A stretch of DNA of 64,000 nt. Origin: Raja brachyura (taxonomy: Eukaryota). The stretch covers positions 85,808,001 to 85,872,000 of the forward strand of contig OY740782.1 of the NCBI GenBank assembly GCA_963514005.1. Direction: 5' to 3'. The position numbers and the translations under genes were made by a program. The notes under the pieces were generated by a model. It made no database searches. It was not told where the DNA came from and saw only the letters and a list, made by a program, of their open reading frames with translations. Shown here one piece after another: positions 1-56,587 of the stretch. Position 1 is the stretch's first letter. Each line of letters begins with the position of its first letter.

Positions 1-187
1 GTTTGATCCTTATTTTATGAGGAGTTACGATGAGGGATTTCGTGAAGACCCCGCCAGCACGCATGCGCGACATTCTTCAAAGCAGGGGTGTGGAATCACA
101 GATAACAACAATGAGTGATGATAGTAAGATTAAGAGAATCTAATATACCAGTTGACCTTATGATATAGGGTTAGGAGCAGAGGGCAA

Positions 188-290
188 GAAATCCCTCATT
201 GTAACTCCTCATAAAATAAGGATCAAACTTCAAACTGGTAAGTTCTCATTTAATCTTACTATTTTACTTCAGAGTCACGTGAAGATTTCA
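188..290. other. DIRS internal complementary region (ICR), copy 1
   Basis: 188-228 is the near reverse complement of 1-41. 261-278 (attttacttcagagtcac) matches the reverse complement of 7646-7663 with one mismatch. The two halves join at ATT. Confidence 0.9.
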
Positions 291-7526: not shown

Positions 7527-8651
7527 CGTTTCTGTAAGAAATTCGCAAATACAGAAACTAACCAGCTCAAGGTTAGTTGAGATGCAAATGCGAGCGACGA
7601 TATGTCGCGCATGTGTGCTGGCGGGGTCTTCGCGAAGTCACTCATGTGACTCGGAAGTAAAATTAATATCCCATTTTAATTTTTCATCAGTGATTATTTC
7701 AAGAAGGTATTCATTAGTGTCAGAGACAGTCTGACAGACTTTCATCTATAGTATGATAACATTCAGTTGTAAAAATAGTATTATCCTTGTTGCTACTAAC
7801 CGAGTGAGGTATTGAGCTAATAAATAATTCACTGAGCTCTCATTGCATTCCTATAACCAGGTAAATTTAATCAGAATACACCAAGAGAGAAGTACTATTT
7901 AGCCTGGCATCTGATCACTATTTGTTAATGACAAAGATCTGCAGTTTGAGGTTTCCATGGAAATAAAGTTAAATTCTTATCAGATGAGTGTTCACTATTT
8001 ATATAAAAACAAGAAGCCTTCCCAAAAAGTACAGCCAGTGCTTTGGAGTCACAGCAAGGAGCCATTAAAAAACAATAATTAAATAATTGCTCTATGGAGT
8101 AATAAATTAAATACATCTCAGCAAAAAACCCATGTGACGCAATGAATTTGCACAATTTCATCCTTGGATAGATGGGAATAAAATATCCACATCTTGATGC
8201 TATGAGTCCCATGTGAAATACATTTGGGCAGATTCAACTTTGTTCCCTGCAAGCAAGCAGAATAAAGCTGCCCACCATTCATCAACCACTTCCTGTCGAC
8301 GACCTGCTCCAAATCAGCTCCCTAGGGAGAGTGTGCATTCCCTTCAATTGGAAGTCTTGAACCTTGCCTCAATCTACTGCCTGTCAATGCTGCTGAAATG
8401 TGTCCTAAAGTTGGTCTACAACTTTGTCTCTTATAGTAACTGGCTGGCTTACACAACAGATTCACTTCTCCAGCAGGTGGGTCCAATCTGGAGCAAATTC
8501 TCAGCTGCAATCTTTGCTGAGTGTCACGCTTTAATAGTTGCTAATTTAGAATTGTAATTCTACTGGCCCTACTTAGCCTGATGGCTGCAACCAATATTTG
8601 CAAGGCATTGACAAAGTCATCATCCTGAACCATATTCTCGCTGTTGGGGAC

Positions 8652-8826
8652 ACAAGGAACTGCAGAATCCTGAGCAAAACACAAAGTGCTGGAAGAGCTC
8701 CATGGATCAGCAACATCTGTGGAGGGGATAGACAGGCAATGTTTTGGGACATAATCCTTGTCCCAACCCAAAACGTTGTCTGTCCATTCCTTCCACATTA
8801 ATACTATTTGTCCCTCCACAGATGTA
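8652..8826. mobile_element. Penelope-type short repeat, degenerate inverted pair
   Basis: aaggaactgcag..cacaaagtgctggaagagctc..catctgtggagggg followed by inverted cccaaaacgttgtctgtccattcc..ctccacagatg. Confidence 0.65.
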
Positions 8827-9905: not shown

Positions 9906-10065
9906 TCAATTTAAATTCTAAGTGGGTTTAACATTGCACAGTTCCATTTTGTCAAGGGAACATGAATTTTATTTAAAATAAATGCATTTAATAATGAAAG
10001 CATTAAAAGTATAATTTATTCCTTGACAAAAATGCAACTGTGCAGCATTTAACCCACTTACATGT

Positions 10066-10390
10066 TAGACACAAAAAGCTGGAGTAACTCAGCGGGTTAG
10101 TGAGTCTCATTGTCTATATTCTTTTTTACCTGGCTCACAGCTAACAATGGCCTGTTTTCTTTAATGCGTTACTTTTTTGCATATTTTTCATTCATTTGTT
10201 CTATATCTCCCCACATCATCGTCTATATCACATGTTTCCCTTTCCCCTGACTCTCAGTCTTAAGAAGGGTTTCGACCCAAAACATCACCCGTTCCTTTTA
10301 TCCAGAGATGCTGCCTGTGCTGCTGAGTTACTCCAGCATTTTGTGTCCATCTTTGGTTTAAACCAGCATCTGCAGTTTCTTGCTACACAT
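10066..10390 (+). mobile_element. Penelope-type repeat with short inverted 5' segment and degenerate hammerhead motif
   Basis: agtcttaagaagggtttcgacccaaaacatcacc..gctgagttactccagc..ccagcatctgcagtt. 10066-10096 is an inverted copy of the 3' part. Confidence 0.7.
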
Positions 10391-10504
10391 ATACGTGTTG
10401 TTAATTGGGGTAACTTTAAATTTTTCATGTGTTCATTCATGTATTTTCCACTGCTAATTCCACTTACCTACAGGAATTCTTCCCGAGTGAGGGCACAACA
10501 AGAA

Positions 10505-10930: not shown

Positions 10931-10949
10931 AAATTAAGTCAATACAAGG

Positions 10950-11177
10950 AAGTGTTTAAGAAGGAACTGCAGATGTTGTAAAATCCAAGGTAGACAAAAA
11001 TGCTGGAGAAACTCAGCGGGTAAGGTAGCATCTACGGAGCGAAGGAAATAGGTGACGTTTTGGGTCGAGACGGTCGGGTTTGAAGAAGGGTCTCGACCCG
11101 AAACATCACATATTTCTTTCGCTCCATTGATGCTGCATCACCTGCTGAGTTTCTCCAGCACTTTTGTCTACCTTCAA
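10950..11177. mobile_element. Penelope-type fold-back (inverted pair) insertion with hammerhead-like motif
   Basis: 10987-11070 is the near reverse complement of 11090-11174. Flanking tcaatacaagg / tcaatagaagg (10939-10949, 11174-11184) is a probable TSD. Confidence 0.8.
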
Positions 11178-11184
11178 TAGAAGG

Positions 11185-11345: not shown

Positions 11346-11978
11346 CATGAGATTCACTGGAATCAGTGAGATGTACATATTTTTCAAGGGGTTTTGAGAC
11401 AATTTTGTTTTTTTCTTTTCCTCTATTCACTTGGCATTTTCTCCCTTTGACAGTGTGTGTTTTGGGAGTGTGGTGCTAGGCATGTAAATTATGTGGTCTG
11501 ATTATTATAATTAACTGAATGTAATGAAGGCCGCAGTCCCAGGATATTTCCCTGGGAAAGAGCTAACATTAGTTCACCTTGTGTTCTCGTAAATTTGGAG
11601 TATTTTGTGGACACAACATTAATTATATCTCTTCAATATCTCCAAAGGAACAGTAGTCAGGCCATACCATGAGGACCCAGTGCTGGCTATAGTCAGTGCA
11701 GTCCAATATCAGGAAGCTTACTTCAATCAGATATCGGACACTATTTAATGTATAGGCACTGAGAATGTGTGAAGAGTTTTTGAACAGTTTTTGTTTAGTA
11801 TATATCTTTTTATTCTGCATCAAATTTATTTTATATATATTTTTTTTAATCAGACATTGGCCTTAATTTAGACAGATACAGGGATTGATGCCTGCTTCAG
11901 GAATAAACCCATGATACTTCTGCTGGCACTGAATTTATATCCATCTTAGGCAAGGTAACCTGCACCCACTCTGATTGT

Positions 11979-12024
11979 TAAAGAAGGAACTGCAGATGCT
12001 GGAGTTTCTCCAGCTTTTTGTGTA
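11979..12024. mobile_element. 46-bp Penelope-type mini-insertion with 15-bp TSD
   Basis: acccactctgattgt at 11964-11978 and 12025-12039 flanks aagaaggaactgcagatgctggagtttctccagctttttgtgta. Confidence 0.85.
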
Positions 12025-12436
12025 ACCCACTCTGATTGTGTGGGTTCTGAGCCGGCTGATCGGGTCAATGTGAGACTGCAGACATTTTCCCAAATGGGGC
12101 AGGAGATGTATCGTAGGGCAGGGGGGTTGATAGCTTGTGACTGGGAGTTAGGGAAGTCTTGTGGCTGGAATTGGGGGCTAGTGATGAGGAGGGAGTCACA
12201 TTTGGAGCAGCAGCTGGTCTGCAGTGGTGACAAGAGTCTGGTGTGGACCGGAATTCTAATGTCTTACCTGACTCTGAGAAATATCCATCAGCCAGGATCC
12301 ATCTCTTACTGCAGACAGGCTCTCTGCCATATAATATTTGCGAACATGCTGTCTGATAGGAACCCATCTTATGTCAGTAAAAACTCGATGTGGTTACATT
12401 TAATTATGAAACAAAACTTTAACTGAATCACATTGC

Positions 12437-25110: not shown

Positions 25111-25408
25111 CTGGAGCTTATCAGCAAACTAGCATGCAGAAAGTGTAAAATTGCCTATCAATCTAATATTTCTAATCTTTAAATCAATGGCTGGGAGGAG
25201 GCAGCAACCTGGGAGAGGAGCCAATCCTCAAGGACATAGCTGTATTTCTGCTAGAAATTGTAATCACACCCCTCTTTCTCTCCCTCACTACAATTAGTCT
25301 GAAGTCCCGACCCAAAATGTTACCTATGTATGTCATTTCAGAGATACTCTAGCACTTTGTGTTCCAAGAGATTTCAATAACTTGAGATGCATTATGAAGG
25401 CTAGCTAA

Positions 25409-35420: not shown

Positions 35421-35541
35421 GTAGAAACAAGGAACTGCGATGCTACTTTACAAAAAAAGACAAAAAGTGCAAGTGTAACTCAACATGTTCTTCAGGAATG
35501 CTGCCTGACCCACTGAGTTACTCCAGCACTTTGTGTCTTTA
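35421..35541. mobile_element. Penelope-type inverted pair within a SINE tail fragment
   Basis: aaggaactgc..gacaaaaagtgc..gtaactca followed by inverted tgagttactccagcactttgtgtc. Confidence 0.65.
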
Positions 35542-36539
35542 TTGTTGTGCGAACGGATGATCGAAGGTTGATCTGGACTCAGTGGGCTGAAGGTCCTGTT
35601 TCCATGCTGTATCTCTCTATTAATCAATCAAAAAACCTGACTATGACGCGAGCAGGATAGATGGACATCATTCTGCTTTGTGGCTGTGCTTGCTTTAGCC
35701 AGTGCAACACATATTAGTCCAACTGATGGGAAAACTAATCAATGGTGTAAATAAGGACCACAGGTGGGCCGGTGATTCTGTTGTTGAAGAGGAACTTGAA
35801 GTTCACGGAAAATGGAGCCAAAAATATTTTTTTTCAAAAAGAAGAATTTAGGAGACAATGTTCATTAACTTCCAGCTGTTCAACTATGTTAAAGAAGAAA
35901 GTATCTGGTGATCCATTTAAACCTGAAAATTAAGAAGAAAAACATCTGAAATGAAAAGCAGTATCTATAAACAGAACTGAAACGATTGATTGCTGCCATG
36001 AATATATTAGTGAAAAATGAGGCTGTACTCCTGGAAGACTCCTGGATGATCAGCCATGATCACATTGAATGGCGGTGCAGGCTCAAAGGGCCGAATGGCC
36101 TACTCCTGCACCTATTTTTCTATGTTTCTATGTTTCTAAATGCATCACAGCTAAAATCCTTAAAAACCTTCCAGGATAAATCTCATTGCAGATAAAGATC
36201 TAGTTTGTTGAATTCCTGACACAGTATTACTCATACAGAAGAAGCATTTTTGTGCTGGCTCCACACCAGTTTCACACTCCAAACATATACCCACGTTTTC
36301 CTCAATTTTCTTTCTGCAGTGTAAACCCAACTGAAAGATTTGCCAAAACCTTGGCATTAAAGACTTTCCTATCCAAAGGAAATGAATTGTTGATTGCCGA
36401 GACGTTAATGAGATAATGATTCCTCCCAGAAGTGGCAACTTTACAGCTGTTTTAGAAGTCTTGCCATGTACATTGTGGGAGTGAGTTTCTCTGCGGTCTT
36501 TTCAATAGTGTGCAATGATATTGACGAAAGGTTCCTGGT

Positions 36540-40020: not shown

Positions 40021-40132
40021 AAGACACAAGAAAGTGCAGATGCTGGAATCTTGAGTAAAAAAAACAAAGTGCTCGAGGAACTCAGCAGGTCAGATAGCGC
40101 CTGCAGTTGGTTTTTCCCCAGCACTTTGTTTA
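40021..40132. mobile_element. Penelope-type repeat fragment with short inversion
   Basis: gtgcagatgctggaatcttgag..acaaagtgctcgaggaactcagc and inverted ccagcactttgt. Confidence 0.6.
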
Positions 40133-40454
40133 TTGCTCACAGAACAATACAGCACAAGAACAGGCTCTTCAGCCCACAATGTCTATGCCGAACATGAGGT
40201 ATACTTAAACTTCTCCGTTCTATTTGCATGTGACCAACGTCCCTCCATTCCCTGCATATTTATGTGTCTACCCAAAAGCCTCTTAAGCACCAGTATTGTA
40301 TCTCTTCCACCACAACTATCTAAACCACTGTACCATGCAAGTTTCCTCCTGCCTCTATCTCATTTAGTCATAAGTCACAGTCATAGAGTCGGGAAACAGG
40401 CTCTTCAGTTCAACTTGTCCATTTCAGCCTTGCAAGGAAGGAAGTTCTATGTCG

Positions 40455-41523: not shown

Positions 41524-42812
41524 CAGTGAATGGCATATGTACACTCAAAAATCATTTGGTCGTTCGCTCGTGTGTCAGACGATGTAGCTTGCTGTTGGCT
41601 TCTGTCGTTGTCCAACATGTTGACAGAATTGTTGCGCGACGCGTCACAGAGTGCATCGTGTCGTTGCTTCCAGAGATCGCCACGAGGAGGCTTCTGTCAT
41701 GATCCCCAAAAATAATAAAGGAGTATAAGTTTATGCTGTTAGGGTTGTGGTCAGAGAGGTTCTGTTGGAGTAAATGTGTTGTCAGTTGGAACAAATGTGT
41801 CATATATTCCGTGCTGTTGAATGCAGAAGTGCACTGATGTTTACTATCATAAAAGACTTACTGCTAATTCTCTTGTGTCAGATTGCTGAACTGCAAATGG
41901 ACTCTTGGGGTCCAGTGTTACAGAGACATTAATCAACATCCCAGACCTCATGTGCCAAATTATTGCCAATGTCACTGGAAACTCCACTCTTTCAAGTTGA
42001 AAACTGTCTTGTTTGCATCCTGGAGTAAAATTAATAAACTAACCCAGGATGTCAGTTTACTCAACTGAACTGTGCAATGGTCTGCAAAGTGAAAGAAATG
42101 CTGAAGGTTTCATGGCACCTCAGAACAATTGTCAATATCAAATCCACTGAGAGCAGTTCAAAGGGTGACGGCACCAAGTTAATTCCATATTGAAATAATT
42201 ATTTGTTTTTATTAAAATATCCAATGATTTATTACACCATTTGTTCACCTGACAGCAAATGGAAAGCTGGAAGGTTAATGATTGGGGCCAGTGATCCTAA
42301 AACAGATGGGAATTGTACTAAAAAAAATGAATGGCAGATGTTACAATTAAAGCAAAAACACAACAAAATACATCCATAAGGTTATTTCATACAAATTGTA
42401 AGCAAAAATCATTTTAGGTGGCATTTTATGTCCAACTCTGCTGCTGTGGAAATAAACAGTTGAAGTGAGGAAATGGCAGCGGAATGCATTAGAGGAAAAT
42501 TTGTCTCATATTGGCCAACAAATCTGTGCTGGCAAAATGTGTTTGAAACTATGAGCTGCTACAACAGCAGGAGGTTTATAAATAGATACACATGGTATTG
42601 ACTGGTCTGGTTGCTCACAGATATGCAGATTGGAGAGGTCAAGATGTGGAATGATGTGGAGAAGAAAAGGATTTTTTCAGTAAATTGTTCTGGAAGAGAG
42701 CAGGGACAGGACCATCTGTTTCAAAGACTGAAGGTCAACAAACAATAGATGAAAATGGTTTTCCACCAATTGTACTTCAAAAACACCAAAGTTAACATTT
42801 GTTACCTTTGAA

Positions 42813-42852: not shown

Positions 42853-43496
42853 GTTTTTTTCCACAGGGTTTGTTTTCCTCGTGTGTGAGTAGATTGTGGC
42901 CTGTTTGTGGTTGACTCCTCCTACACTGAAGGGAAAGTAATGACGTCTGGTCAAAAGACCCAAAGCCTAATAATAATTCTGATGTTGTACACATTCGTTG
43001 CCATAGAGACCAAAGGAAACCAACCATTAACTGGCATCAAATTGTTGGTAACCATTGAAGTGAAATAACAGACCATAACATTTCCACTTAGCATTCCTCT
43101 GTCTTCTATTTAACTGTCACAACAAAATGTACAACTACCTGCATCATGTAGAAAGGAGGCTTTCTGGGATCAACAAATTATTATTTTTTAAACTTCATAC
43201 AGTGGAAATCGGATATCAATCCATCTCACCATCTGCTTTGAAATTTAAAATGATCAGTTTTATCTCTCCTTCACAGTTCTAACATAAAGTATTTGACCTA
43301 AAATGTTAACTCTATTTCTCTTTCCTCAGATGCTGCCTGACCTACCGAGTGTTTCCATTCCTGGATCCATCTGCTGCTTTGTGGAGGTTTGGTGAAATGG
43401 CCACTATGGAAATACTGAAGGAGGATTTGTACTGTCAAAATTGGTACTTCAAAAAGTGAAAATAGAAAAACATTTCAAACCTGATCCCAACTTGCT

Positions 43497-46497: not shown

Positions 46498-46826
46498 ACA
46501 CAAAGCAAAATTCTGCAAGTACAAACAAGGCAAACAACCTAAACAAGTGGCTCACCTGGATAATGAAGTAGATGTGAATACAGCAAAAGAGCTAGTTCAT
46601 AAACATATTACTTAGACCAGCTAGCTTGAGTTACAGGGAGAAAGTGAACAAGCTGGATATTTTTGTTTGGAACGTAGGATGCTGGGGGTGTCTTTATTAA
46701 ATGCACAAGATTATGAAGGTTCTGGATACAGTGAACACGCATAGTCTTTTTCTGAGAGTAGATTATTTTTGACTGTAGAATGACTTTTCTGGGTCATTTT
46801 TCCTCCCATTACTGTATGTTATGAGG

Positions 46827-47046
46827 GTACACAAAAGGCTGGAGAAACACAGCGGGTGCAGCAGCATCTAAGGTGCGAAGGAGATAGGCGACTTTCGGGT
46901 TGAGACCCTTCTTCAAAGGAGAAGAAGGGTCTCGACACGAAACGTTGCCTATCTCCTTCGCTCCTTAGATACTGCTGCACCCGCTGAGTTTCTCCAGCCT
47001 TTTGTTCTACCCTCGATTCTCCAGCATTTGCAGTTCTGACTTTAAC
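46827..47046. mobile_element. Penelope-type fold-back insertion with 16-bp TSD and two back-to-back hammerhead-like motifs
   Basis: TSD actgtatgttatgagg at 46811-46826 and 47047-47062. 46823-46914 is the near reverse complement of 46921-47014. Confidence 0.87.
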
Positions 47047-48133
47047 ACTGTATGTTATGAGGCTGCCTCTTTGATTAATGAAAACCCTTTCCTTCAGCCA
47101 AGTAAGTGTGCAGTGAGATTTGTGAGAAAAGGACAAATATTCCTGGAATGCAAATGTTTAGTTAAAAGACGAGCTTAAGTTAAACATTTAAATACACGGT
47201 ATGATGTGCTTGGAATGACAAAATAAGTTTCAGTAGTGAGAATATTTTGTTTCTAACCTTGTGGAAAAGGGCTCAGTTTTCTTCCGTGAAGCTAATTATA
47301 CTGGCCTGATGATGCAGTTATGAATGTTGATTGTAAATCATATCGCAGTGTACAGCAAAAACAGAAAATTACCTGGCTAAGAGCAACATTTATCACCTTG
47401 TATCAGCAGCAGTCTAAGGATCACAAAAATGTTTTAAGACACTCAGCCGAATAGATCATTTTATAACTTCTAATAAAGCAATTGATCAGCTTAATTGCCA
47501 CTCATTCATTTCCTGCAGCTTCAGAGCAAACAGCTGTTCTTGCTCAATAATCCTTTTGACATTAGATATTATTGAAAGGGGGAAAATCTATATGCTATGA
47601 TAAATATGACCAGCAATTAAATGTTTTCAATATTTCGAATAGATGAATAATTTAGCCACTGCTGAAACAAATTCTGTGCATCAACAGAAATATGATAAAG
47701 GAGCTGTTTAAAATTCAGTGATCTGCATCCTAATGGAGCAGTCATGTGCAAGATTAGCAGATGGCTCTTCAGATTTTGAAGAATTGCTAAATTATTGCAA
47801 ATCAAGGAAATAAAACTGCTTAAAAAAAAGGATATTGAGAAGGTAGCAACAAGCCTGTATTGCAGCCAAAGACTTAGATCATGTCATAAATGCCATACTT
47901 AAATTGGATTATGATATCCAATTCTCTCCATAATTCCTGGTCTCCTCCATAATCTATTCACAGAAAATAGCAGTTGAGGAGTGATAGGTTGAGTGGGAAA
48001 GCCACTGAAGGTTATGAAGCCGTCAAACTTGGCACAAATATTTTATTTTGTCACTGATGCGTTTTTTTGTACCACACAACTTCATGATTCAGGTTTTAAA
48101 AATAATAATGGCTCCTTGTTGATGTAATTTTAA

Positions 48134-48338
48134 AGGGCCTGTCCCACTTTCACGACCTCTGCCGAGTTTGCCCTCGACTTATACTTGCAACATGGTCGTC
48201 ACGAGGTCGTAGGTATGTCGTGATGCTAGTCATAGGTACTCGTGGCATCAAGTAGATCGGGGCGTTTTTCCAGCCTGATGAAAAATGTCCACGAGTAAAA
48301 AAGGTCGTGAATTAGGTCATGAAAGTGGGACAGGCCCT
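48134..48338. mobile_element. PIF/Harbinger MITE, 205 bp
   Basis: Perfect 19-bp TIR agggcctgtcccactttca / tgaaagtgggacaggccct with TAA TSD (48131-48133, 48339-48341). Confidence 0.93.
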
Positions 48339-50084
48339 TAAGAGTTTCACAATGTTCCCATTGAGGCAGCCAAAGAATAGCCAACCAAATGCTGTTAGTT
48401 TCCCCGTCCATTCATGATCAGCCTTGGACGGAGACAAGATGGTGATTACAATGCACATTATTCATAAGGAAAAGGCCTGTAATGTCAGAGTGGAAAGGAG
48501 AACAGGAACAGATGCAACAGCAACAATGAGGTTTAACACAACTGTAAGAAGAGGTGAGGTTGAAGACAGACACAGCGCAAAGTGAAAAAGGGGCAGGACC
48601 ATCATCAGCTAGTAATGCAGCTGGAGGCTGGAGCAATCAAAATGGTGTTAAACTATTCGAGTTCTGACAAAGCAGGCTAAATATGGCATCTACATCAATA
48701 TGCAGCTGGCAGTTTGGTGTAGACACCAAGAATATTGGTATTGATATTAGCTTATAATGAAATATTTGCTGCAAAAGATACTAAAATAAATGTAATGTAC
48801 TGACATTGATATCAAGGAAGGTTTTCCTGTTTGTAACCCTGCTTGCATTGGTCAGGAAAGCAGTAAATTAGGTGGAAACACAGAGACAACATGCCCCTTT
48901 GCCCCTCCCACCCGACTAGTGACTGTGGGAGAGGCAGGTTCTACTAGATCTCATCGATTAAGACATTTAATATCTCTGTCCAAATATTTCCACCCAATTC
49001 CTTCCTCTCAATTTCCTTTGAACATCTCATGAGTATTGTATCTGCAGTAAAATATTGTATCATAAACCTGAAGCACTATTTACTTTCTTAAACTAGCTCT
49101 GCTTCAGATAATAATTAACATCTATTAGAGCCAGCCTGTCATCTTATTACAGCTTTACTGTCACTCTTCCAGATTGTTTTCTTAAGAATGGTACTTGTAT
49201 CTAAATGCATCTGCTTTATTTAATTTTTACAGACTTCATTCCACCTTATTTCCATCTTTTGTCCATGTTCCGCTCATACCCCTGATTCTGCGATGTCAAT
49301 CATGTTTGGCTTTGAAAATAGCAAGGCTACAGTTTACAAGAGAACCTGGAAGCTACTACGAAATATGATCATTTACTTTTCTGGTCCTCTTTCTGGTGCA
49401 TTAATGTGCTTTAATTCCTACACAGACATTTTTAATTCATCATAAAATGTCAATTCAAGTCGCTTCAATTTAGTAGTGGGATGTTAATCTGACTGAAATT
49501 TGATTTACTTAGAATCCTAGAATCATTTCAACCCAGAAGGGAATATTCAACCCATTGATACCAACATTTTGAAAGAACAATCCATTGGTCCAATTCTCTG
49601 GTTCTAATTCCCCTGTTCTTCAAATGTCCTTTCCATCAATTGCTTTCCCAATTTATTTTGAATGTCACCATGAATCTGCTTCCACTTACCTTTCCAGAAT
49701 GCAATTCAGATTGTGATATCTTACTGCATAAACAGTTTTTAATAAAACATTTATTTCAGCAATTATCAAAGGAAAGGATTTTGGATCATTTACTTGATCT
49801 ACATTTGGACTACACTTGGTCTGCACTTGATGTATACTTGATCTACACCTGGACTGCACTTGAGCCTTCCTCATTTTAAGCACTGCTTTTTAAATCATCT
49901 CTCAATCATTTTTGGTTCATGGAGAACGTTCCCAGCCTTTCCAGAAATGAAAAAGAAAAAAGAAAATGATGGCAATCTTCAGTAAGTCAAGCAGTATCTG
50001 CAAAAGGAGGAACTGAATTAATGTTTAATCAAGTAAAATATGTACAAAATAAGAACTGTGCAAAATTCCTCCAACGGTCTCCAC

Positions 50085-50332: not shown

Positions 50333-51031
50333 CAATGGCTTCTCCTGTTTATATGCTTTCTGCATGCTTATTCCTTTCAAACCCAGCTCCAAGCACCCCA
50401 GCGCAATGCACTGTTGGGATAACATACTGATAGCAACCAGCTGTGAAAACTCTAAAGAAAGACCCAGGGATATGGAAGTCTAAAGAAGGCCAGTTGTCTC
50501 TCATAACAATATTCTGATTTATGTTTTGTGGGCTATCTGCAATATATAATCAAAATAATCTTTGCATTAATTTCTGAGTATTCTATGTCATCATTCAATA
50601 CTTATTTATTTCTTCTGTAACCTTTATATTACGGTTGCAATTGTTATGCCTGAAACAACATGATTTTGTTCAAGTGAAGATAGACACAAAAACCTGGTGT
50701 AAAGCCCCTGTCCCACTTTCACGACCTAATTCACGACCTCTGATGACCTTAAACGACCTATTAAAAAAATCAAGGTCTCGGTAACCTACGACCTCGTACG
50801 ACCTTCCACGACTATGTCTACGACCTCCGACTATGTTGAACATCTCCGACGACTATGTTGAAGACCTCCCACGACTATGAAGAAGACCTCCTTCGACTAT
50901 GTTGAAGACTGGCTTCGACCATGTACGTTTTACTGCTGTTTGCAGTAGCCCATTTGCTTCAGCAGCCTTTTAAGAAAGGCAGAAGGGGAAGAGCAAGGGT
51001 GAAGAAGAAGCACAAGAAGAGGTCTCAATGA

Positions 51032-51152
51032 GTGAATGGAGATGATGTGATGGACTGTCCCAGTACACCAGATGACTGGAAGAGAGTGACACTGGGCTTT
51101 GACAAAAGATGGAACTTTAAGCACACGTGTGGGGCAGTGGATGGCAAGCATG
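51032..51152 (+). pseudogene. Harbinger DDE transposase fragment (HARBI1-like)
   Basis: CPSTPDDWKRVTLGFDKRWNFKHTCGAVDGKH matches the P.T..EW...F..RWNF..C.GA.DGKH motif that carries the first catalytic D. Confidence 0.85.
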
Positions 51153-51172
51153 CCATTCTTGTCCTTGTCCCT

Positions 51173-51691
51173 TTACCCCTCATTTTCCTTTTCATACAGG
51201 ATGGCATTCTGCTGGAACCATTGCTCAAGGTCCCCCTTCTGCTGCCTGGTGAAGGTGTAGGGCATAACCTTCCTCCAGCCCTCCCTCACAACCAATGGGG
51301 CATCTGCCTCTGATGCTGTGTCAGACAATGGAGAAAGGGCTGCTTTGCTGCCTTCAAATGAGGCAGTGAAGGATGGGGTGGTGGTGGGGACATAAACTAC
51401 CACCCTAGTCTCCTCCTCCAGGGATCTCTCGTGCAGGGCTACCTCCTCCTGCATTATCACCTCCTGTGGCATCACCTCCTGCCACTCCTCCTCTTGGGTG
51501 GGCACACCTGCATGCCCGTTTTTTTTTAGGGTTGTGCCCTCCCACTGCGCTGCTGCCTTTTTGGTGCCATCTCTAAAACACAAGTCTTCTCTCCAAATAA
51601 TTCTCCAGCTATGAACGAACATGCCTTGGAGTGACAGAGGTGACGTTCTGCTGTTTAAACTACCTTTTTTTTCTACTGACCTTTTTTTCAC
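51173..51691 (-). pseudogene. Probable Harbinger second ORF (Myb/SANT/MADF-like) fragment
   Basis: Acidic low-complexity region, then YTFTRQQKGDLEQWFQQNAILYEK, resembling the start of a MADF-like domain. Convergent with the transposase remnant. Confidence 0.5.
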
Positions 51692-51842
51692 CCCAGAGCT
51701 ATTACCTTCGATTGTCTCTGACCACGTACGACTAGCATCGCGACCTACTACGACCTACCTACAACCTCCTACGACCTCGTGGCGACCATGCTGCGATTAT
51801 GAGTCAAAGACAAACTCGGCAGAGGTCGTGAATTAGGTTGAG

Positions 51843-51960
51843 ACTCTTCTTAAGAAGGGTCACCCATCCTCTCTAGTGATGCTGCCTGTCCCGCTGAGTT
51901 ACTCCAGCTTTTTGTGTCTGTCTTCGGTTTAAACCAGCATCTGCAGTTCCTTCCTATACA
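51843..51960 (+). mobile_element. Penelope-type repeat; its inverted partner at 50675-50702 is separated by the Harbinger
   Basis: aagaagggtc..gatgctgcctgtcccgctgagttactccagctttttgtgtctgtcttc..ccagcatctgcagttcc. Confidence 0.75.
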
Positions 51961-53235
51961 TTTCTTTCTAGTTCTTGATTTCTTTATTGAGTTGCATCAT
52001 ATACTATAGTTTTCTATAGTCATCTAATCCATCCTATTTGGAGGTTGATAAAAGTGTAAATAACATCCAGTGTATGTATTGAGAAAAATAAAGCTATACC
52101 AAAACCATAGTAAAAAGCAACAAGGAAAGGATGCATAGGTATACATCAGAATATTTGAAAAAGAAAAGGTTTATTTGTTCCAGCATGTGACAAAATCCCT
52201 TGTATTCAGCCTTGTCTCATTCCGTTTATAGGTTTAACAAACAAAAAGCTATTAACTGGGTTAAAATTAATCTTGAATCAAGTGATATTTACATAAATGT
52301 TCGAAGTTGCTACTTTCCTCTAATAGGAGTGATTCCTAACTTCATACGTGAATTATTTGATTCTATTTTCCATTAGTTCTTGACTGTGCAACCGTAGGAA
52401 TTAAATTTTCTTTATCTATCCTATCAGTTTCCATTAACACCTTGAAAAAATTGACTAAATCATCCCTGAAGTTTTTAAATTGCTGTGAATTCAATCTTCA
52501 TATTTTAACGTTAAGAGACCGAGATTTAGTTGGGTGAATTCATTCTTCACTCCCTCCAAAGTCTTCTATAGTTTGATGCCAGAACTCTTGGTGTAGTCTA
52601 TATGGGAGTAATCTAGAGCTCCATCAATATGTTGATATCTTTACATAACATTTTAAAATTGATGTAGACAGATGCTGAAGTCACAATGAGCCTCCATTGT
52701 TTTAAGCTTTCCATTATTTACCAGATATTCTGTATTATTCTTCCAGTCCAAGTTAGATAACTTCACATTTGCCAGCATTAAAAGCATTTGCTGCAGTTTT
52801 GCAGATTTACTTAATCACATATCTCGGCAATTTTATGGTTCTGACTGTACAGCTCCCAATATTGTCCACCATTATATCTCTGGCAAACATGGATATCTGC
52901 CCTCTATCTCATCTCTCGAATTTATAAAGAGAGAAAAAAGTTGAATATCACATACAGAACTTTTGGAATCCAGGTAGTCACAGGTTGTTGAGTTGATTAT
53001 TGTCATCTCTCTGTTTCTGCCACTTAGCCAGATACCTAACCAAGTCAATAATTGGTTATCATCATCAATGTCATCAGTTTCAACTTTATTCATATTCGGT
53101 GTCATTTGAAATTCCATGAATAATATCGAGTGACAATTCCCCATCTACTACTTTAATCACCTCTTGAAATGTTTCAGTCAGGCCTGACCACACCTAATGA
53201 TCAGCTGAAAATGTTCAAGATGTTGAATCACTCTG

Positions 53236-53525: not shown

Positions 53526-53831
53526 GCACTCTGTCCTGAATTATAGACTATGGTAATTTTAGAACAGTCGATGTTCGGTTGACTGGCAAAATTATTTCAT
53601 GTTCTACTCTCGTCTTTCATACAATTTCTTTATGTGAAGGAATAGTTTGCACATTGGGAGAATGTTGAATGTTTATTGCAAGAGTATTTCTAATATCCAT
53701 ACTACACCCATCAATACTCTGGAATAACATGTTCAAGCACAAGGGAATTAACACTCTTTCAGGTTATTCTTCTTCACATTTTTCTGGTTAATTTTGGCAT
53801 GCTCCTGTCCTTGATTCAATACTGGCATCAC

Positions 53832-53960
53832 ATGGAACTGCAGATGCTGGTATCTTAAGCGAAAAACAAAGTGCTGGTGGAATTCAATGGGTCAGGTGGC
53901 ATAATTTCCTCCATAGATGCTTCCAGACCAGATTAGTTCCTTCAGTATTTTGTGTTTTAC
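53832..53960. mobile_element. Penelope-type inverted pair (old)
   Basis: ggaactgcagatgctgg..acaaagtgctgg and inverted gttccttcagtattttgtgtttt. Confidence 0.6.
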
Positions 53961-54806
53961 ACAATGATGTCATCCTTGGGATGTCTCGAGCCCTGTCTTT
54001 AGGTAGTCCATTGTGTGTTTGGTCCTGGGCTTCTCCAGCTGGGCTAAAGCTAGCCAGATCTCACAGGGCAATACAACTCAGACATCTCCTTTAGAAGTTA
54101 TTGAAACTATGTAACACTGAAACCAAAACAACATAACATTTTCAAAATCATATTATTAGAAGAAAGTGCAAACAAAACTGTATTACACAGGATGTTAGGA
54201 ATACAGAGGAATTAAGACACACCATAAACTATTATTGAAAATCAAGGATCTTTGCAGCTTCTTGCTGTAAAAATGTTGGATTGCCCTGAACTTTTAATAT
54301 ACCAGGGAATCACATTAGGAACAATTAATTGACATAAACCCTCCTTTTGTGCTGAACCCTTACATGTCCAGTTGAATTGTATAAAGATTAAGTTTGCAAA
54401 AGATTATGTTGATGGGGTAGATTTACAGTTTATCTGCACCTTGAATATTTCCTGCCTACTGATATTCCAATGAGAGAAAACAGATGATGGGCATTGTGAC
54501 CCTTGGCAGCTACTGTTCATTAAGGGATTTTCAAATTAACTGTAAAAAAAAGTTTTATAAAGATCCTGTGGATTTTAGTCCACTTTAGTCAATCAGGAGA
54601 TAAATTTATGTCTTCCCGATGGAGCTGCCCACTGGAGTCTACTCCTGTGTGATTGAGATCTTAACTTCTTATAACACAAGTCATTTCTAACAGGCTTCTC
54701 CTATTCTTAGTGAGACATGGTTGAGGACGGCACAGCATAGTAGAGCTGCTGTCTCATAGGTCCAGAGATGGGTTCAACCGTAACCTCCAATGCTGCTAGT
54801 ATGGAG

Positions 54807-54899
54807 GTCAGGGTCCTGAAGAAAGGTCTCATCACCACTCCTTCTCTACAGAGATGCTGCCTGTTCCGCTGAGTTACTCCAGCTTTTTGTGTCTATCTT
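54807..54899 (+). mobile_element. Penelope-type short insertion with 14-bp TSD
   Basis: TSD ctgctagtatggag at 54793-54806 and 54900-54913; contains ctgaagaaaggtctc. Confidence 0.82.
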
Positions 54900-55093
54900 C
54901 TGCTAGTATGGAGCTTGCACATTTTCCCTGTAACATTTGAGTTTCCCCAAGGTACTCTGGTTTCCGCCCACGTCTCAGAAACATTAGTTTTTGGCTCCTG
55001 CAAATTGTCCCTACTGTGTAGATTCGTGGTAGAATCTAGGAGGGTTATTGGGAGTGTGGTGAGAATAAAATGGTCCAGGAATTTGTTTGAATA

Positions 55094-56587
55094 TAGTGCA
55101 TTCTGAAAGTATTCAGACCCGTTCACTTTTTCCACATTTGTTACAGCCTTATTCAAAAATGGATTAAATTCATTTTTTTTTAATCATCAATCTCCATAAT
55201 AAAAATGCAAAAACAGATTAGACATTTTTCCAAATAATAAAAATAAATAACTGAAATATCACATTTACATAAGTATTCAGACTTCACTCAGTACTTTGTT
55301 GAGGCACCTTTGGCAGTGATTACAGCCTCAAATCTTTTGGGTATGGTGAATCAAGTTTGGCACACCTGTATTTGGGTAATTTCTCCCATTCTCTGCAGAT
55401 CCTCTCAAATTTAGTCAGGTTGGATGAGGAGCAACGATGCACAACTATTTTCAAGTCCCTCCAGAGATATTCATTGGGTTCAAGTCCGGGTTCTGGCTGG
55501 GCCACTCAAGGACATTCACAGACTTGTCATGAAGGCACTCGAGCATTGTCTTGGCTGTGTGCTTGGGCTAGTTGGCCTGTTGGAAGGTGAACCTCTGCGT
55601 CTGAGGTCTGAGGTCCTGAACACTCTGGAGCAGGTTTTCATCAAGGATCTCTCTGTACATTTCTCCATTCATCTTTCCCTCGATACTGACTAGTCTCCCA
55701 GTACCTACCACTGACAAACATCCCCACAGCATGATGCTGCCACCACCATGCTTCACCATAGGTATGGTATTGGCCAGATGATGAGCGGTGCCGGGTTTCC
55801 TCCAGACGTGACGCTTGGCATTCTGGCCAAAGAGTTCAATCTTGGCTTCATCAGACCAGAGAATCTTGTTTAGGTGCCTTCTGGCAAACTCCAAGTGGGC
55901 TTCATGTGCCTTTCACTGAGGAGTGGCTTCTGTCTGGCCACTCAAAAGGCCTGATTGGTAAAGTGCTGCAGATATAGTTGTCCTTCTGGAAGTTTCTCCC
56001 ATCTCCACAGAGGAATTCTGGAGTTCTGTCAGGGTGACCATCGGGTTCTTGGTCACCTCCCTGACCAAGGCTCTGCTCCCCCGATTGCTCAGTTTGGCTG
56101 GGCGGCCAGCTCTATCAAGAGTCCTGATGGTTCCAATGTTCTTCCATTTAAGAATGACGGAGGCCACTGTGCGCTTTGGGACCTGCAATGCTGCAGAAAT
56201 TGTTTTATACCCTTCTCCAGATCTATGCCTCGACACAATCCTGTATCGGAGGTCTACGGACAATTCCTTCGTCTTCATGGCTTGGTTTTTGGTCTAACTT
56301 GCACTGACTTATGGACTCCAATCAAGTTGTAGAAGCATCTCAAGGGTAATCAATGGGACCAGGATGAATCTAAGCTCAATTTTAAGTGTCATAGCAAATG
56401 ATCTGAATACTTATTTAAATGTGATATTTCAGTTACTTCTTTTTAATTACTTAACAAAAAATTTTAAACACCCGTTTTCGCTTCTTCATTCTGGGGTATT
56501 GCATGTAGATTGATGATAAAAAAAATGAATTTAACGTAACAAAATGTGGAAAAAGTGAAGGGGTCTGAATACTTTCTGAATGCACTG
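55094..56587 (-). mobile_element. Tc1-family DNA transposon (IR/DR type), defective
   Basis: TA flanks. TIRs of about 190 bp (agtgcattctgaaagtattcagaccc / gggtctgaatactttctgaatgcactg) with inner repeat aagtattcaga. Transposase pieces [22 protein letters not shown] and a degenerate SPDLNPIE..W. Confidence 0.95.
55320..56278 (-). pseudogene. Tc1 DD34E-type transposase, frameshifted
   Basis: ORFs 55913-56278, 55568-55894 and 55320-55505 are consecutive parts of one transposase. Confidence 0.9.

What the first reader, a model, noticed from the sequence alone, without database searches (positions are those of the whole stretch)
46811..47062. Short fold-back Penelope-type insertions whose consensus rebuilds a minimal hammerhead ribozyme
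Seen: more than a dozen copies of one short family occur in the window (8652, 10066, 10950, 11979, 19441, 25296, 35421, 40021, 46827, 51843, 53832, 54807 and others). Many are inverted pairs, and several have 11-16-bp TSDs. Aligning 10255-10295, 11075-11110, 25296-25325, 46921-46950 and 54811-54830 gives the consensus gt-CTGAAGA-a-gggt-ctcg-accc-GAAA-c-GTC-acc. This is the CUGAnGA / stem II / GAAA / NUH hammerhead core with a palindromic ACGT in place of stem III. Known: Penelope-like elements carry minimal type I hammerheads that are thought to cleave as dimers. Inference: this is a high-copy, non-coding, ribozyme-bearing retroelement family. In this copy and at 10950-11177 the inversion point falls at the ribozyme core, which suggests the RNA structure sets where reverse transcription folds back. 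No single copy here has a fully intact core.
Basis: partly seen in the sequence, partly recalled or inferred. Interest (0 to 1): 0.75.

Follow-up and report, generated by a model that had tools for sequence, protein, structure and literature searches.

The report
Penelope retroelement fold-back insertion scars
These short hairpin-shaped repeats carry decayed remains of a known minimal hammerhead ribozyme motif and are most likely the truncated ends of Penelope-like jumping genes, probably laid down when both cut DNA strands primed copying of the same RNA, so they are real but mostly ordinary.

Summary
Observation largely confirmed. There are 14 insertions (13 clear, 1 weak) from several subfamilies. 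The focal copy is a fold-back with a perfect 16-bp TSD. The motif fits the published minimal type I hammerhead of Penelope-like elements (PLEs), and no copy is intact. G12 is a minority in the window (3 of 10 arms); it is restored by CpG-decay logic and by contig loose ends in 4 of 4 runs. In 8 of 8 scorable fold-backs exactly one arm has the 30-40-nt PLE tail, and in 4 of 9 the arms are not nested. That favours priming from both nicked strands at two RNA start sites over a hairpin fold-back. Arm 5' ends are enriched 17-28 nt upstream of the predicted cut (9 of 23; scan-corrected p about 0.02 with one arm per insertion). None lies at the cut, and 13 of 23 lie outside the core. A splice-acceptor-like site abuts that zone. 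No GIY-YIG or PLE-type RT was found in 71 ORFs scanned, so non-autonomous status is unproven. The scan noted the same pattern before in two other genomes. Verdict: new member of a known kind.

The parts
46811..46826 (+). Left target-site duplication of the focal insertion (16 bp). Its last 4 nt are complementary to the element at the tailless start site.
   Evidence: 16/16 match to 47047-47062, above all 1500 random pairs; pairing runs 4 nt into the TSD in the fold
46827..46915 (-). Left (inverted) arm, no tail; reaches U4 of the hammerhead core; one base missing at position 15.2
46916..46920 (.). Junction filler between the two arms (the left arm may extend 2 nt into it)
   Evidence: sequence; loop of the hairpin
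46921..47046 (+). Right (forward) arm with tail; starts at G5 of the core
46921..46950 (+). Hammerhead remnant: G5-A9, extra A, stem II with one mismatch, GAAA, palindromic 4-mer, H17 at 46946 (predicted cut 46946|46947); lacks C3-U4 and the 5' strand of helix I
   Evidence: against the consensus in PMC4209133 Fig. S3
47015..47046 (+). PLE-type tail (about 32 nt) present on one arm only
   Evidence: two 3'-end classes in contigs of 4 runs
47047..47062 (+). Right target-site duplication
8650..8800 (.). Old fold-back; tailed left arm, junction at stem II; right arm broken off, no clear TSD
10067..10392 (.). Fold-back with 30-nt tailless left arm and long tailed right arm (10120-10392) holding the whole core at 10259-10286 and a splice-acceptor-like AG at 10256-10257
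10950..11176 (.). Fold-back; tailed left arm ends in stem II, tailless right arm starts at the 5' edge of the core; 11-bp TSD (10 of 11) at 10939-10949 and 11174-11184
11979..12024 (.). 46-bp insertion: inverted tail only plus forward pre-tail segment only (arms do not overlap); perfect 15-bp TSD at 11964-11978 and 12025-12039
19441..19549 (-). Single tailed arm ending at the 3' foot of stem II
25263..25365 (+). Single decayed arm running upstream through a pyrimidine tract and AG (25296-25297); deletion inside the core
35421..35543 (.). Fold-back joined 12-35 nt downstream of the cut (no core left); tail on left arm
40021..40142 (.). Fold-back joined downstream of the cut; tail on left arm; weak 10-bp TSD
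43265..43357 (+). Old single arm of a distant subfamily, with upstream pyrimidine tract and AG and a possible 4-bp helix I
50676..51962 (.). Fold-back split by a later 1.1-kb insertion (about 50700-51836); spacer-less palindromic junction at about 51852|51853; tail on right arm
53830..53961 (.). Old fold-back joined 10-22 nt downstream of the cut; tail on left arm
54807..54899 (+). Single tailless arm starting 9 nt before C3, with a deletion across stem II and GAAA; perfect 14-bp TSD at 54793-54806 and 54900-54913
60567..60621 (-). Weak, old copy
   Evidence: E 0.084

Best explanation
The repeats are head-to-head inverted insertions with target-site duplications, a 30-40-nt tail on one arm only and a decayed minimal hammerhead motif, and they are most likely the 5'-truncated pseudo-LTR ends of Penelope-like retroelements, probably made when both nicked target strands primed reverse transcription on the same uncleaved RNA at two start sites and the two short cDNAs were then end-joined. 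SHOWN: copies, arms, TSDs of 10-16 bp in 5 insertions (3 of them perfect), one tail per fold-back, two classes of 3' end, the motif and its decay, and the positions of arm ends. FROM PAPERS: an anole PLE protein cuts and extends both strands, starts internally at two sites that bound the tail, and does not need ribozyme cleavage (PMC11167929). INFERRED: a staggered double nick gives the TSD; one RT starts at the tail end and the other about 35-40 nt further in; both stop early; the antisense cDNAs are joined with 0-20 nt of filler. RT stops more often than elsewhere at the 5' edge of the core, where a splice-acceptor-like boundary lies; the cause is open. The ribozyme is then a passenger in these scars: it probably matters only in the master element's tandem RNA, as a weak, dimer- and protein-dependent ribozyme.
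For: Tail on exactly one arm in 8 of 8 scorable fold-backs (p 0.004 against independent 50:50 choice); the ninth has a broken arm. Contigs of 4 runs (116,539-129,842 laid per run) end at two places, 10347 and 10377-10390, and 12 of the 15 joints shown join those two end classes on opposite strands, never like with like (343 joints not shown). In 4 of 9 fold-backs (10950, 11979, 35421, 53832) the tailless arm reaches further 5' than the tailed arm, and in 11979, with a perfect TSD, the arms do not overlap at all; neither arm can then be a copy of the other. 0 of 23 arm ends lie within -4..+9 of the predicted cut, so cleaved RNA is not the visible template. The motif fits the published consensus, including the extra base after A9 and G10.1-C11.1. 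G5 is restored in 97% of laid depth; loose-end consensus reads G12 in 4 of 4 runs and G16.2 in 3 of 4. The same TSD + inverted pLTR + one-sided tail layout is described for rotifer PLEs.
Against: No RT or GIY-YIG gene is linked to any copy: 0 of 71 ORFs scanned hit GIY-YIG, and the 5 RVT_1 hits belong to other retroelements (71 of about 100 frames >=90 codons were sent). G12 is A in 7 of 10 window arms and in about 83% of depth laid on the 10060 copy; reference bias and CpG decay are likely causes, but dead master variants are not excluded. Non-nested arms could also come from later lopsided deletion of a palindrome centre. In vitro the anole enzyme showed no strand difference in start site, which does not by itself predict strict tail/no-tail pairing. 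The joint table reports outer ends, and could instead reflect tail-to-tail neighbours. 8 of 13 insertions have no TSD above chance. The sample is one window and arm ends were partly set by eye.
Confidence: 0.72

Rival explanations
1. Structure-set fold-back (first reader; close to the self-priming model of PMC3846280): one cDNA or antisense RNA stops at the hammerhead, folds back on itself and is copied into the second arm.
For: 4 of 9 fold-backs join inside the core or stem II; 9 of 23 arm ends lie at -28..-17, about 9-10 times the stop rate elsewhere (scan-corrected p 0.003 for all arms, 0.02 for one arm per insertion). 46827 and 50676 are nearly symmetric, and 50676 is a spacer-less palindrome centred in the core. 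Palindromes at PLE inversion junctions are read as self-priming in PMC3846280.
Against: 4 of 9 fold-backs have non-nested arms. 5 of 9 join outside the core. Ends lie past stem II and not at its 3' foot (1 of 23), where a hairpin would stall RT. Self-pairing energy at observed ends is no better than jittered positions (p 0.80) and the core is no more self-complementary than the downstream part. No core-centred joint is among the 15 shown, and contig depth does not drop sharply at the 5' edge of the core (confounded by reference bias).
Confidence: 0.15
2. A dedicated non-autonomous, ribozyme-bearing RNA (retrozyme-like or SINE-like PLE derivative) whose short master ends near the core or a few hundred bases upstream, mobilised in trans by a PLE enzyme. 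This is compatible with twin priming and differs only in the source RNA.
For: No PLE coding sequence in the window; the longest arm holds 166 nt of non-coding, pyrimidine-rich sequence upstream of the cut; contig depth falls about 1000-fold toward 10098-10119; no long open frame downstream of the core. Non-LTR retrozymes are reported as PLE derivatives, including in one cartilaginous fish (bioRxiv 10.64898/2026.07.22.740005).
Against: No tandem direct units, the defining retrozyme layout, among the 14 insertions. The depth fall at 10098-10119 coincides with the junction filler of that copy. Heavy 5' truncation is normal for coding PLEs (PMC8557442). Many contigs run on 100 nt or more upstream of the core.
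Confidence: 0.3
3. Ribozyme cleavage defines the template: cleaved RNA is reverse transcribed and arms end at the cut.
For: The motif is kept across subfamilies that are 50-85% identical downstream, which suggests selection on it in the masters.
Against: 0 of 23 arm ends at -4..+9; 13 of 23 arms run through the cut site. PMC11167929 found uncleaved RNA to be the main substrate and no RNA-seq ends at the cut.
Confidence: 0.04
4. The hairpins are MITE-like DNA transposons with terminal inverted repeats, or the motif is a chance match.
For: Inverted arms with a TSD; no Rfam hammerhead hit.
Against: TSD length varies from 10 to 16 bp, the two outer ends differ by the tail, single-arm copies with a TSD exist (54807), inner ends vary, and the motif matches a published consensus at every defining position once CpG decay is allowed.
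Confidence: 0.02

Closest known systems
Minimal type I hammerhead (min-HHR) of metazoan Penelope-like elements (Cervera and de la Pena 2014, PMC4209133; abstract, results, discussion, part of methods and supplement parts 1-2 of 3 read)
   Same: CUGAnGA, one unpaired base, G10.1-C11.1, short stem II, GAAA, palindromic 15.2-16.2 with no loop 3, UH. Mostly found as single motifs in truncated copies, sometimes as pairs on opposite strands. A 2-bp helix I and an intron end at helix I are described for D. virilis, and a 2-bp helix I with the same C-G-U-C end is listed for Culex.
   Different: Stem II is 4 bp, at the short end of the range. No cartilaginous fish appears among the 56 motifs of Fig. 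S3 as read. All window copies are decayed.
Canonical EN+ PLE insertion unit: inverted 5'-truncated pLTR plus one-sided 30-40-bp tail plus TSD (PMC3846280 and PMC8557442, passages read)
   Same: Head-to-head inverted arms, tail on one side, TSD, palindromic junctions, heavy 5' truncation.
   Different: Here nothing but the two short arms is left (46-330 bp, no ORF); TSDs reach 14-16 bp against 8-10 bp in the rotifer cases; those papers propose self-priming or leave the mechanism open.
Poseidon of Anolis carolinensis, PAc (Frangieh et al. 2024, PMC11167929; main text and start of methods read)
   Same: Two RT start sites bounding the tail, about 70-110 nt downstream of a hammerhead here and a similar distance there; both target strands cut and extended; cleavage not needed.
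   Different: In PAc the ORF starts at stem II; here no long frame follows the core. The paper does not derive fold-back insertions from double priming; that step is my inference.
Non-LTR retrozymes (bioRxiv 10.64898/2026.07.22.740005, parts 1-2 of 5 read; PMC7229834 seen as listing only)
   Same: Short, non-coding, type I hammerhead-bearing, PLE-related repeats.
   Different: Retrozymes are tandem direct repeats with a complete ribozyme per unit; these are dispersed inverted scars with no complete core.
Twin priming of LINE-1 (recalled; the search listed three papers that mention it, none read)
   Same: Both target strands prime on one RNA and give an inversion inside a TSD.
   Different: In L1 the two parts do not overlap and the second primer is random; here the two start sites are fixed and close, so the arms usually overlap as a hairpin.

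Membership tests
PLE minimal type I hammerhead | C3 U4 G5 A6 N7 G8 A9 | tested here: met
   Majority at each position in 6-9 arms; G5 97% in contigs of 4 runs
PLE minimal type I hammerhead | G12 A13 A14 A15.1 | tested here: inconclusive
   A13-A15.1 10 of 10; G12 only 3 of 10 in the window and about 17% of laid depth, but G in the loose-end consensus of 4 of 4 runs (agreement 0.54-0.56); the site is a CpG
PLE minimal type I hammerhead | Unpaired base after A9 and G10.1-C11.1 closing helix II | tested here: met
   A in 8 of 9; G10.1 6 of 9; C11.1 9 of 10
PLE minimal type I hammerhead | Palindromic 15.2-16.2, U16.1, H17 | tested here: met
   C 7 of 10, G 6 of 10, U 10 of 10, H17 C or U 10 of 10
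PLE minimal type I hammerhead | Helix I (usually 3-5 bp; 2 bp in some) | tested here: inconclusive
   2 bp in 10060 and 25296, possibly 4 bp in 43293; absent from the focal copy; not populated in the energy model
PLE minimal type I hammerhead | Self-cleavage as a dimer | not testable with these tools
   Modelled dimer -6.1 kcal/mol against -27.3 for the best alternative fold; the model lacks tertiary and protein effects
EN+ Penelope-like elements | Telomerase-like RT plus GIY-YIG endonuclease | tested here: inconclusive
   None in 71 ORFs scanned; no genome held; the copies are too short to include it
EN+ Penelope-like elements | Inverted 5'-truncated copy at the 5' end | tested here: met
   9 of 14 insertions
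EN+ Penelope-like elements | 30-40-bp tail on one end only | tested here: met
   8 of 8 scorable fold-backs; two 3'-end classes in 4 of 4 runs
EN+ Penelope-like elements | Target-site duplication | tested here: met
   3 perfect and 2 weaker among 13 tested; 8 not above chance
EN+ Penelope-like elements | Direct pLTRs in partial tandem around an ORF | not testable with these tools
   No full-length copy in the window; no genome
EN+ Penelope-like elements | Retained spliceosomal intron ending at helix I (as in D. virilis) | tested here: inconclusive
   Pyrimidine tract plus YAG at the 5' edge of helix I in 3 of 3 copies that run upstream; top 1.3%, 0.2% and about 2.6% of 4077 window YAG sites (the third has another AG nearby); no RNA run to test
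Non-LTR retrozymes | Tandem direct units each with a complete type I hammerhead | tested here: not met
   0 of 14 insertions in the window; elsewhere in the genome not testable
Non-LTR retrozymes | Abundant circular RNA | not testable with these tools
   No RNA run listed

The most novel reading that the evidence does not exclude
An intron acceptor sits directly on the 5' strand of hammerhead helix I, so splicing gates the ribozyme. The unspliced RNA has a 2-bp helix I and stays uncut as the insertion template. The spliced RNA gains a G-rich exon end (seen in front of the core in copies 10950 and 54807, from two subfamilies) that makes a 4-bp helix I. The same boundary stops the two coupled reverse transcriptases of one dimer, and this sets where the fold-backs turn.
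Probability: 0.1. Interest if true: 0.6.

Novelty: new member of a known kind. Interest (0 to 1): 0.27.

Why it matters
As it stands this extends a known ribozyme motif and a known insertion layout to another high-copy vertebrate family, which is ordinary. Its value is as a data set. How PLEs make inverted pseudo-LTRs is not settled in the papers read, and very many short scars with TSD, tail side and junction readable would test it directly. Strict tail/no-tail pairing and non-nested arms point to two RTs working on one RNA. The pile-up of arm ends at an acceptor-like site next to helix I is a concrete lead on why PLEs keep both an intron and a weak ribozyme.

Tried and rejected
No whole genome is held, so no genome-wide consensus, breakpoint map or partner search was possible. 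Rfam scan: no hammerhead family among 15 matches at E<=5; the miRNA hits are hairpins far below gathering score. Pattern scans for the conserved 3' motif: 0 in viral contigs; 19 loci in metagenome contigs, all 19 without similarity beyond 19-29 nt and dropped as chance. Run search: no RNA holder listed among 20 runs; this says nothing on expression. Read laying gave contigs only and cut tables (201 differences, 343 joints, 1757 loose ends not shown), so junction positions could not be mapped genome-wide. My idea that junctions fall where two cDNA ends can self-pair was tested and not supported (p 0.80). Arm-to-arm differences show no G>A over C>T bias (9 against 14), so no sign of cDNA editing. 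Folding of 5 real copies gave no hammerhead fold (z 0.1-1.6). Pfam scan: no GIY-YIG in 71 ORFs. Paper searches: searches listed no paper on this family in cartilaginous fish and none deriving PLE fold-backs from twin priming; most listed papers were not opened and subscription journals and Repbase are not covered, so this does not show absence from print. Supplements of the bioRxiv retrozyme preprint could not be seen and may list the same family. A look-up of earlier findings by sequence returned one unrelated phage note. The host group (cartilaginous fish) is recalled from the repeat landscape and was not tested.

Full report
Setting. The window is repeat-rich, 30-50% GC eukaryotic DNA. It holds reverse-transcriptase, tyrosine-recombinase and Tc1-type remnants (Pfam RVT_1, Exo_endo_phos, Phage_int_SAM_4, HTH_SB). 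That it comes from a cartilaginous fish is recalled from the repeat landscape and was not tested. No genome is held. Positions r below count from the predicted cut after H17 (r = 0; window 10286 in copy 10060, 46946 in the focal copy).

Observation. The focal element is as described. A 16-bp direct repeat (46811-46826, 47047-47062) flanks an inverted arm (46827-46915), 5 nt of filler and a forward arm (46921-47046). As single-stranded DNA it folds at -103 kcal/mol, z -20. A profile of window arms found 22 hits at 13 places and none on the reversed window. With the stub at 50681, which is the cut-off left arm of the 51843 copy, I count 14 insertions, 9 with two arms; 60572 is weak. Eight arms compared over about 60 nt downstream of the cut are 49-87% identical, so several subfamilies of different age are present. 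Of 13 insertions tested for TSDs, three are perfect (14, 15, 16 bp; beyond all 1500 random pairs), two are weaker (10/11, p 0.02; 9/10, p 0.06) and eight are not above chance.

The ribozyme motif. Column counts over the arms that cover each position: C3 4 of 6, U4 6 of 6, G5 5 of 7, A6 9 of 9, G8 8 of 9, A9 7 of 9, an extra A 8 of 9, G10.1 6 of 9, C11.1 9 of 10, A13, A14 and A15.1 10 of 10, C15.2 7 of 10, G16.2 6 of 10, U16.1 10 of 10, H17 C or U 10 of 10. On contigs from four runs laid on 10098-10420, G5 is restored in 97% of depth, but G12 in only about 17% and G16.2 in 13-14%. Both sites are CpGs, and the reference copy carries A at both, which favours contigs with A. The unaligned loose ends at 10301 (about 2000 contigs per run, another subfamily, agreement about 0.55) read G12 in 4 of 4 runs and G16.2 in 3 of 4. 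So an intact ancestral core is likely but not proven for every subfamily. No window copy is intact and Rfam finds none. Helix I is 2 bp in 10060 and 25296 and perhaps 4 bp in 43293. In an energy model of a unit pieced from window copies, stem II pairs have probability about 0.1, and the designed dimer (-6.1 kcal/mol) is far above the best alternative (-27.3). This agrees with the low or protein-dependent activity reported for such motifs (PMC4209133, PMC11167929) and is no evidence of cleavage.

Anatomy of the arms. Outer ends fall in two classes, r about +60 to +68 and r about +95 to +105. Contigs of all four runs end at the same two places (10347 and 10377-10390). The 30-40 nt between them is the PLE tail (PMC8557442, PMC3846280), which Frangieh et al. 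mapped to two RT start sites (PMC11167929). In 8 of 8 scorable fold-backs exactly one arm has the tail (p 0.004). In one search, 12 of the 15 joints shown link the two end classes on opposite strands and none links like with like; 343 joints were not shown, and the table may be reporting outer ends of fold-backs or true tail-to-tail neighbours, so I take it as weak support. In 4 of 9 fold-backs the tailless arm reaches further 5' than the tailed arm (10950, 11979, 35421, 53832). In 11979, which has a perfect TSD, one arm is only tail and the other only pre-tail. A single strand folding back can only make a second arm that is part of the first. Two priming events, one from each nicked strand, make all the patterns seen. 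Later lopsided deletion of a palindrome centre is the caveat. In the focal copy the last 4 nt of the left TSD are complementary to the element at the tailless start, as a primer-template overlap would be.

Where the arms stop. I assigned 23 arm 5' ends from pairwise alignments and by eye. Ten lie in the core (-28..0), nine of them at -28..-17; ten lie downstream (+10..+75) and three upstream. Against a constant stop rate the -28..-17 zone is enriched 9-10-fold; corrected for scanning, p is 0.003 with all arms and 0.02 with one arm per insertion (300 simulations each). The whole core gives a median p of 0.06 with one arm per insertion. None lies at -4..+9 and one lies at the 3' foot of stem II. 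Self-pairing of cDNA ends does not explain it (p 0.80). Summed contig depth for the 10060 subfamily shows no sharp fall at that edge (0.65, 0.57 and 0.44 million across 10263-10241 in X1) and is still 0.34 million 100 nt upstream of the cut, although reference bias blurs this.

What lies at that edge. All three copies that run further upstream have a pyrimidine tract and YAG directly before helix I (top 1.3%, 0.2% and about 2.6% of 4077 YAG sites in the window). In D. virilis Penelope the intron ends at the 5' end of a 2-bp helix I (PMC4209133). Two copies from different subfamilies (10950, 54807) have a similar G-rich 7-9 nt in front of the core that would lengthen helix I to 4 bp. It could be an exon end. 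It could also be templated filler: each stretch is also the reverse complement of nearby element sequence (stem II; 10245-10251). No RNA run is available. This is the novel case, at about 10%.

Mechanism. Shown: the layout, the tail pairing, the non-nested arms, the decayed motif and the end positions. From papers: a PLE protein cuts and extends both strands, starts at two internal sites and uses uncleaved RNA. Inferred: a staggered double nick, two RTs on one RNA, early stops and end-joining with filler. I put this at 0.72. A structure-set fold-back gets 0.15. A dedicated non-autonomous master gets 0.3 and is compatible with twin priming; no coding partner was found in 71 ORFs, which neither proves nor excludes it. 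Retrozyme membership fails in the window, since there are no tandem units.

Novelty. Motif and layout are both published for PLEs. Six paper searches listed nothing on this family or on twin priming as the origin of PLE fold-backs, but coverage is limited. Two earlier notes of this scan describe the same pattern in other genomes, including arms stopping just before the ribozyme; they are unchecked and not counted as support. I had reached the double-priming reading before seeing them (note). Verdict: new member of a known kind, interest 0.27.

Noticed in passing
window 50700-51836 and 48123-48349: A 1.1-kb element split the 50676 fold-back at a TAA site and lost its far end; a 227-bp relative with 36-nt terminal inverted repeats lies at 48123-48349. 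Looks like a Harbinger-type DNA transposon and its MITE (family name recalled, not tested).
   Followed up: partly
window 14381-18238 and 12588-13769: An unbroken 1285-codon endonuclease-RT frame with an upstream 393-codon coiled-coil frame: an apparently intact L1/Tx1-type LINE in A+T-rich DNA.
   Followed up: no
window 41622-41718 (-): Weak match to the HDV-like CPEB3 ribozyme model (23.4 bits, gathering 35, E 0.089). May be chance or the 5' ribozyme of a decayed LINE.
   Followed up: no
window 1-263 and 60851-61161: Two related segments, each with 44-79-nt inverted repeats, next to DIRS-like tyrosine-recombinase and RT remnants (766-2965, 61967-63895): probably DIRS terminal structures.
   Followed up: partly
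window 9912-10067: An A+T-rich imperfect inverted repeat (39-nt arms) directly abuts the left end of the 10060 insertion; it draws several sub-threshold plant miRNA hits.
   Followed up: no
window 25303, 51862, 54830: Three copies have small deletions inside the hammerhead core or stem II, two of them between short repeats; hairpin-prone deletion or RT skipping of stem II.
   Followed up: no
table 5: The best-supported opposite-strand joints all pair the pre-tail end with the tail end. If literal, tail-to-tail neighbours of unlike ends exist, which would suggest insertion into existing copies at the tail boundary.
   Followed up: partly
window 55913-56297 (-): Tc1/Sleeping Beauty-type transposase fragment (PF25787).
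   Followed up: no
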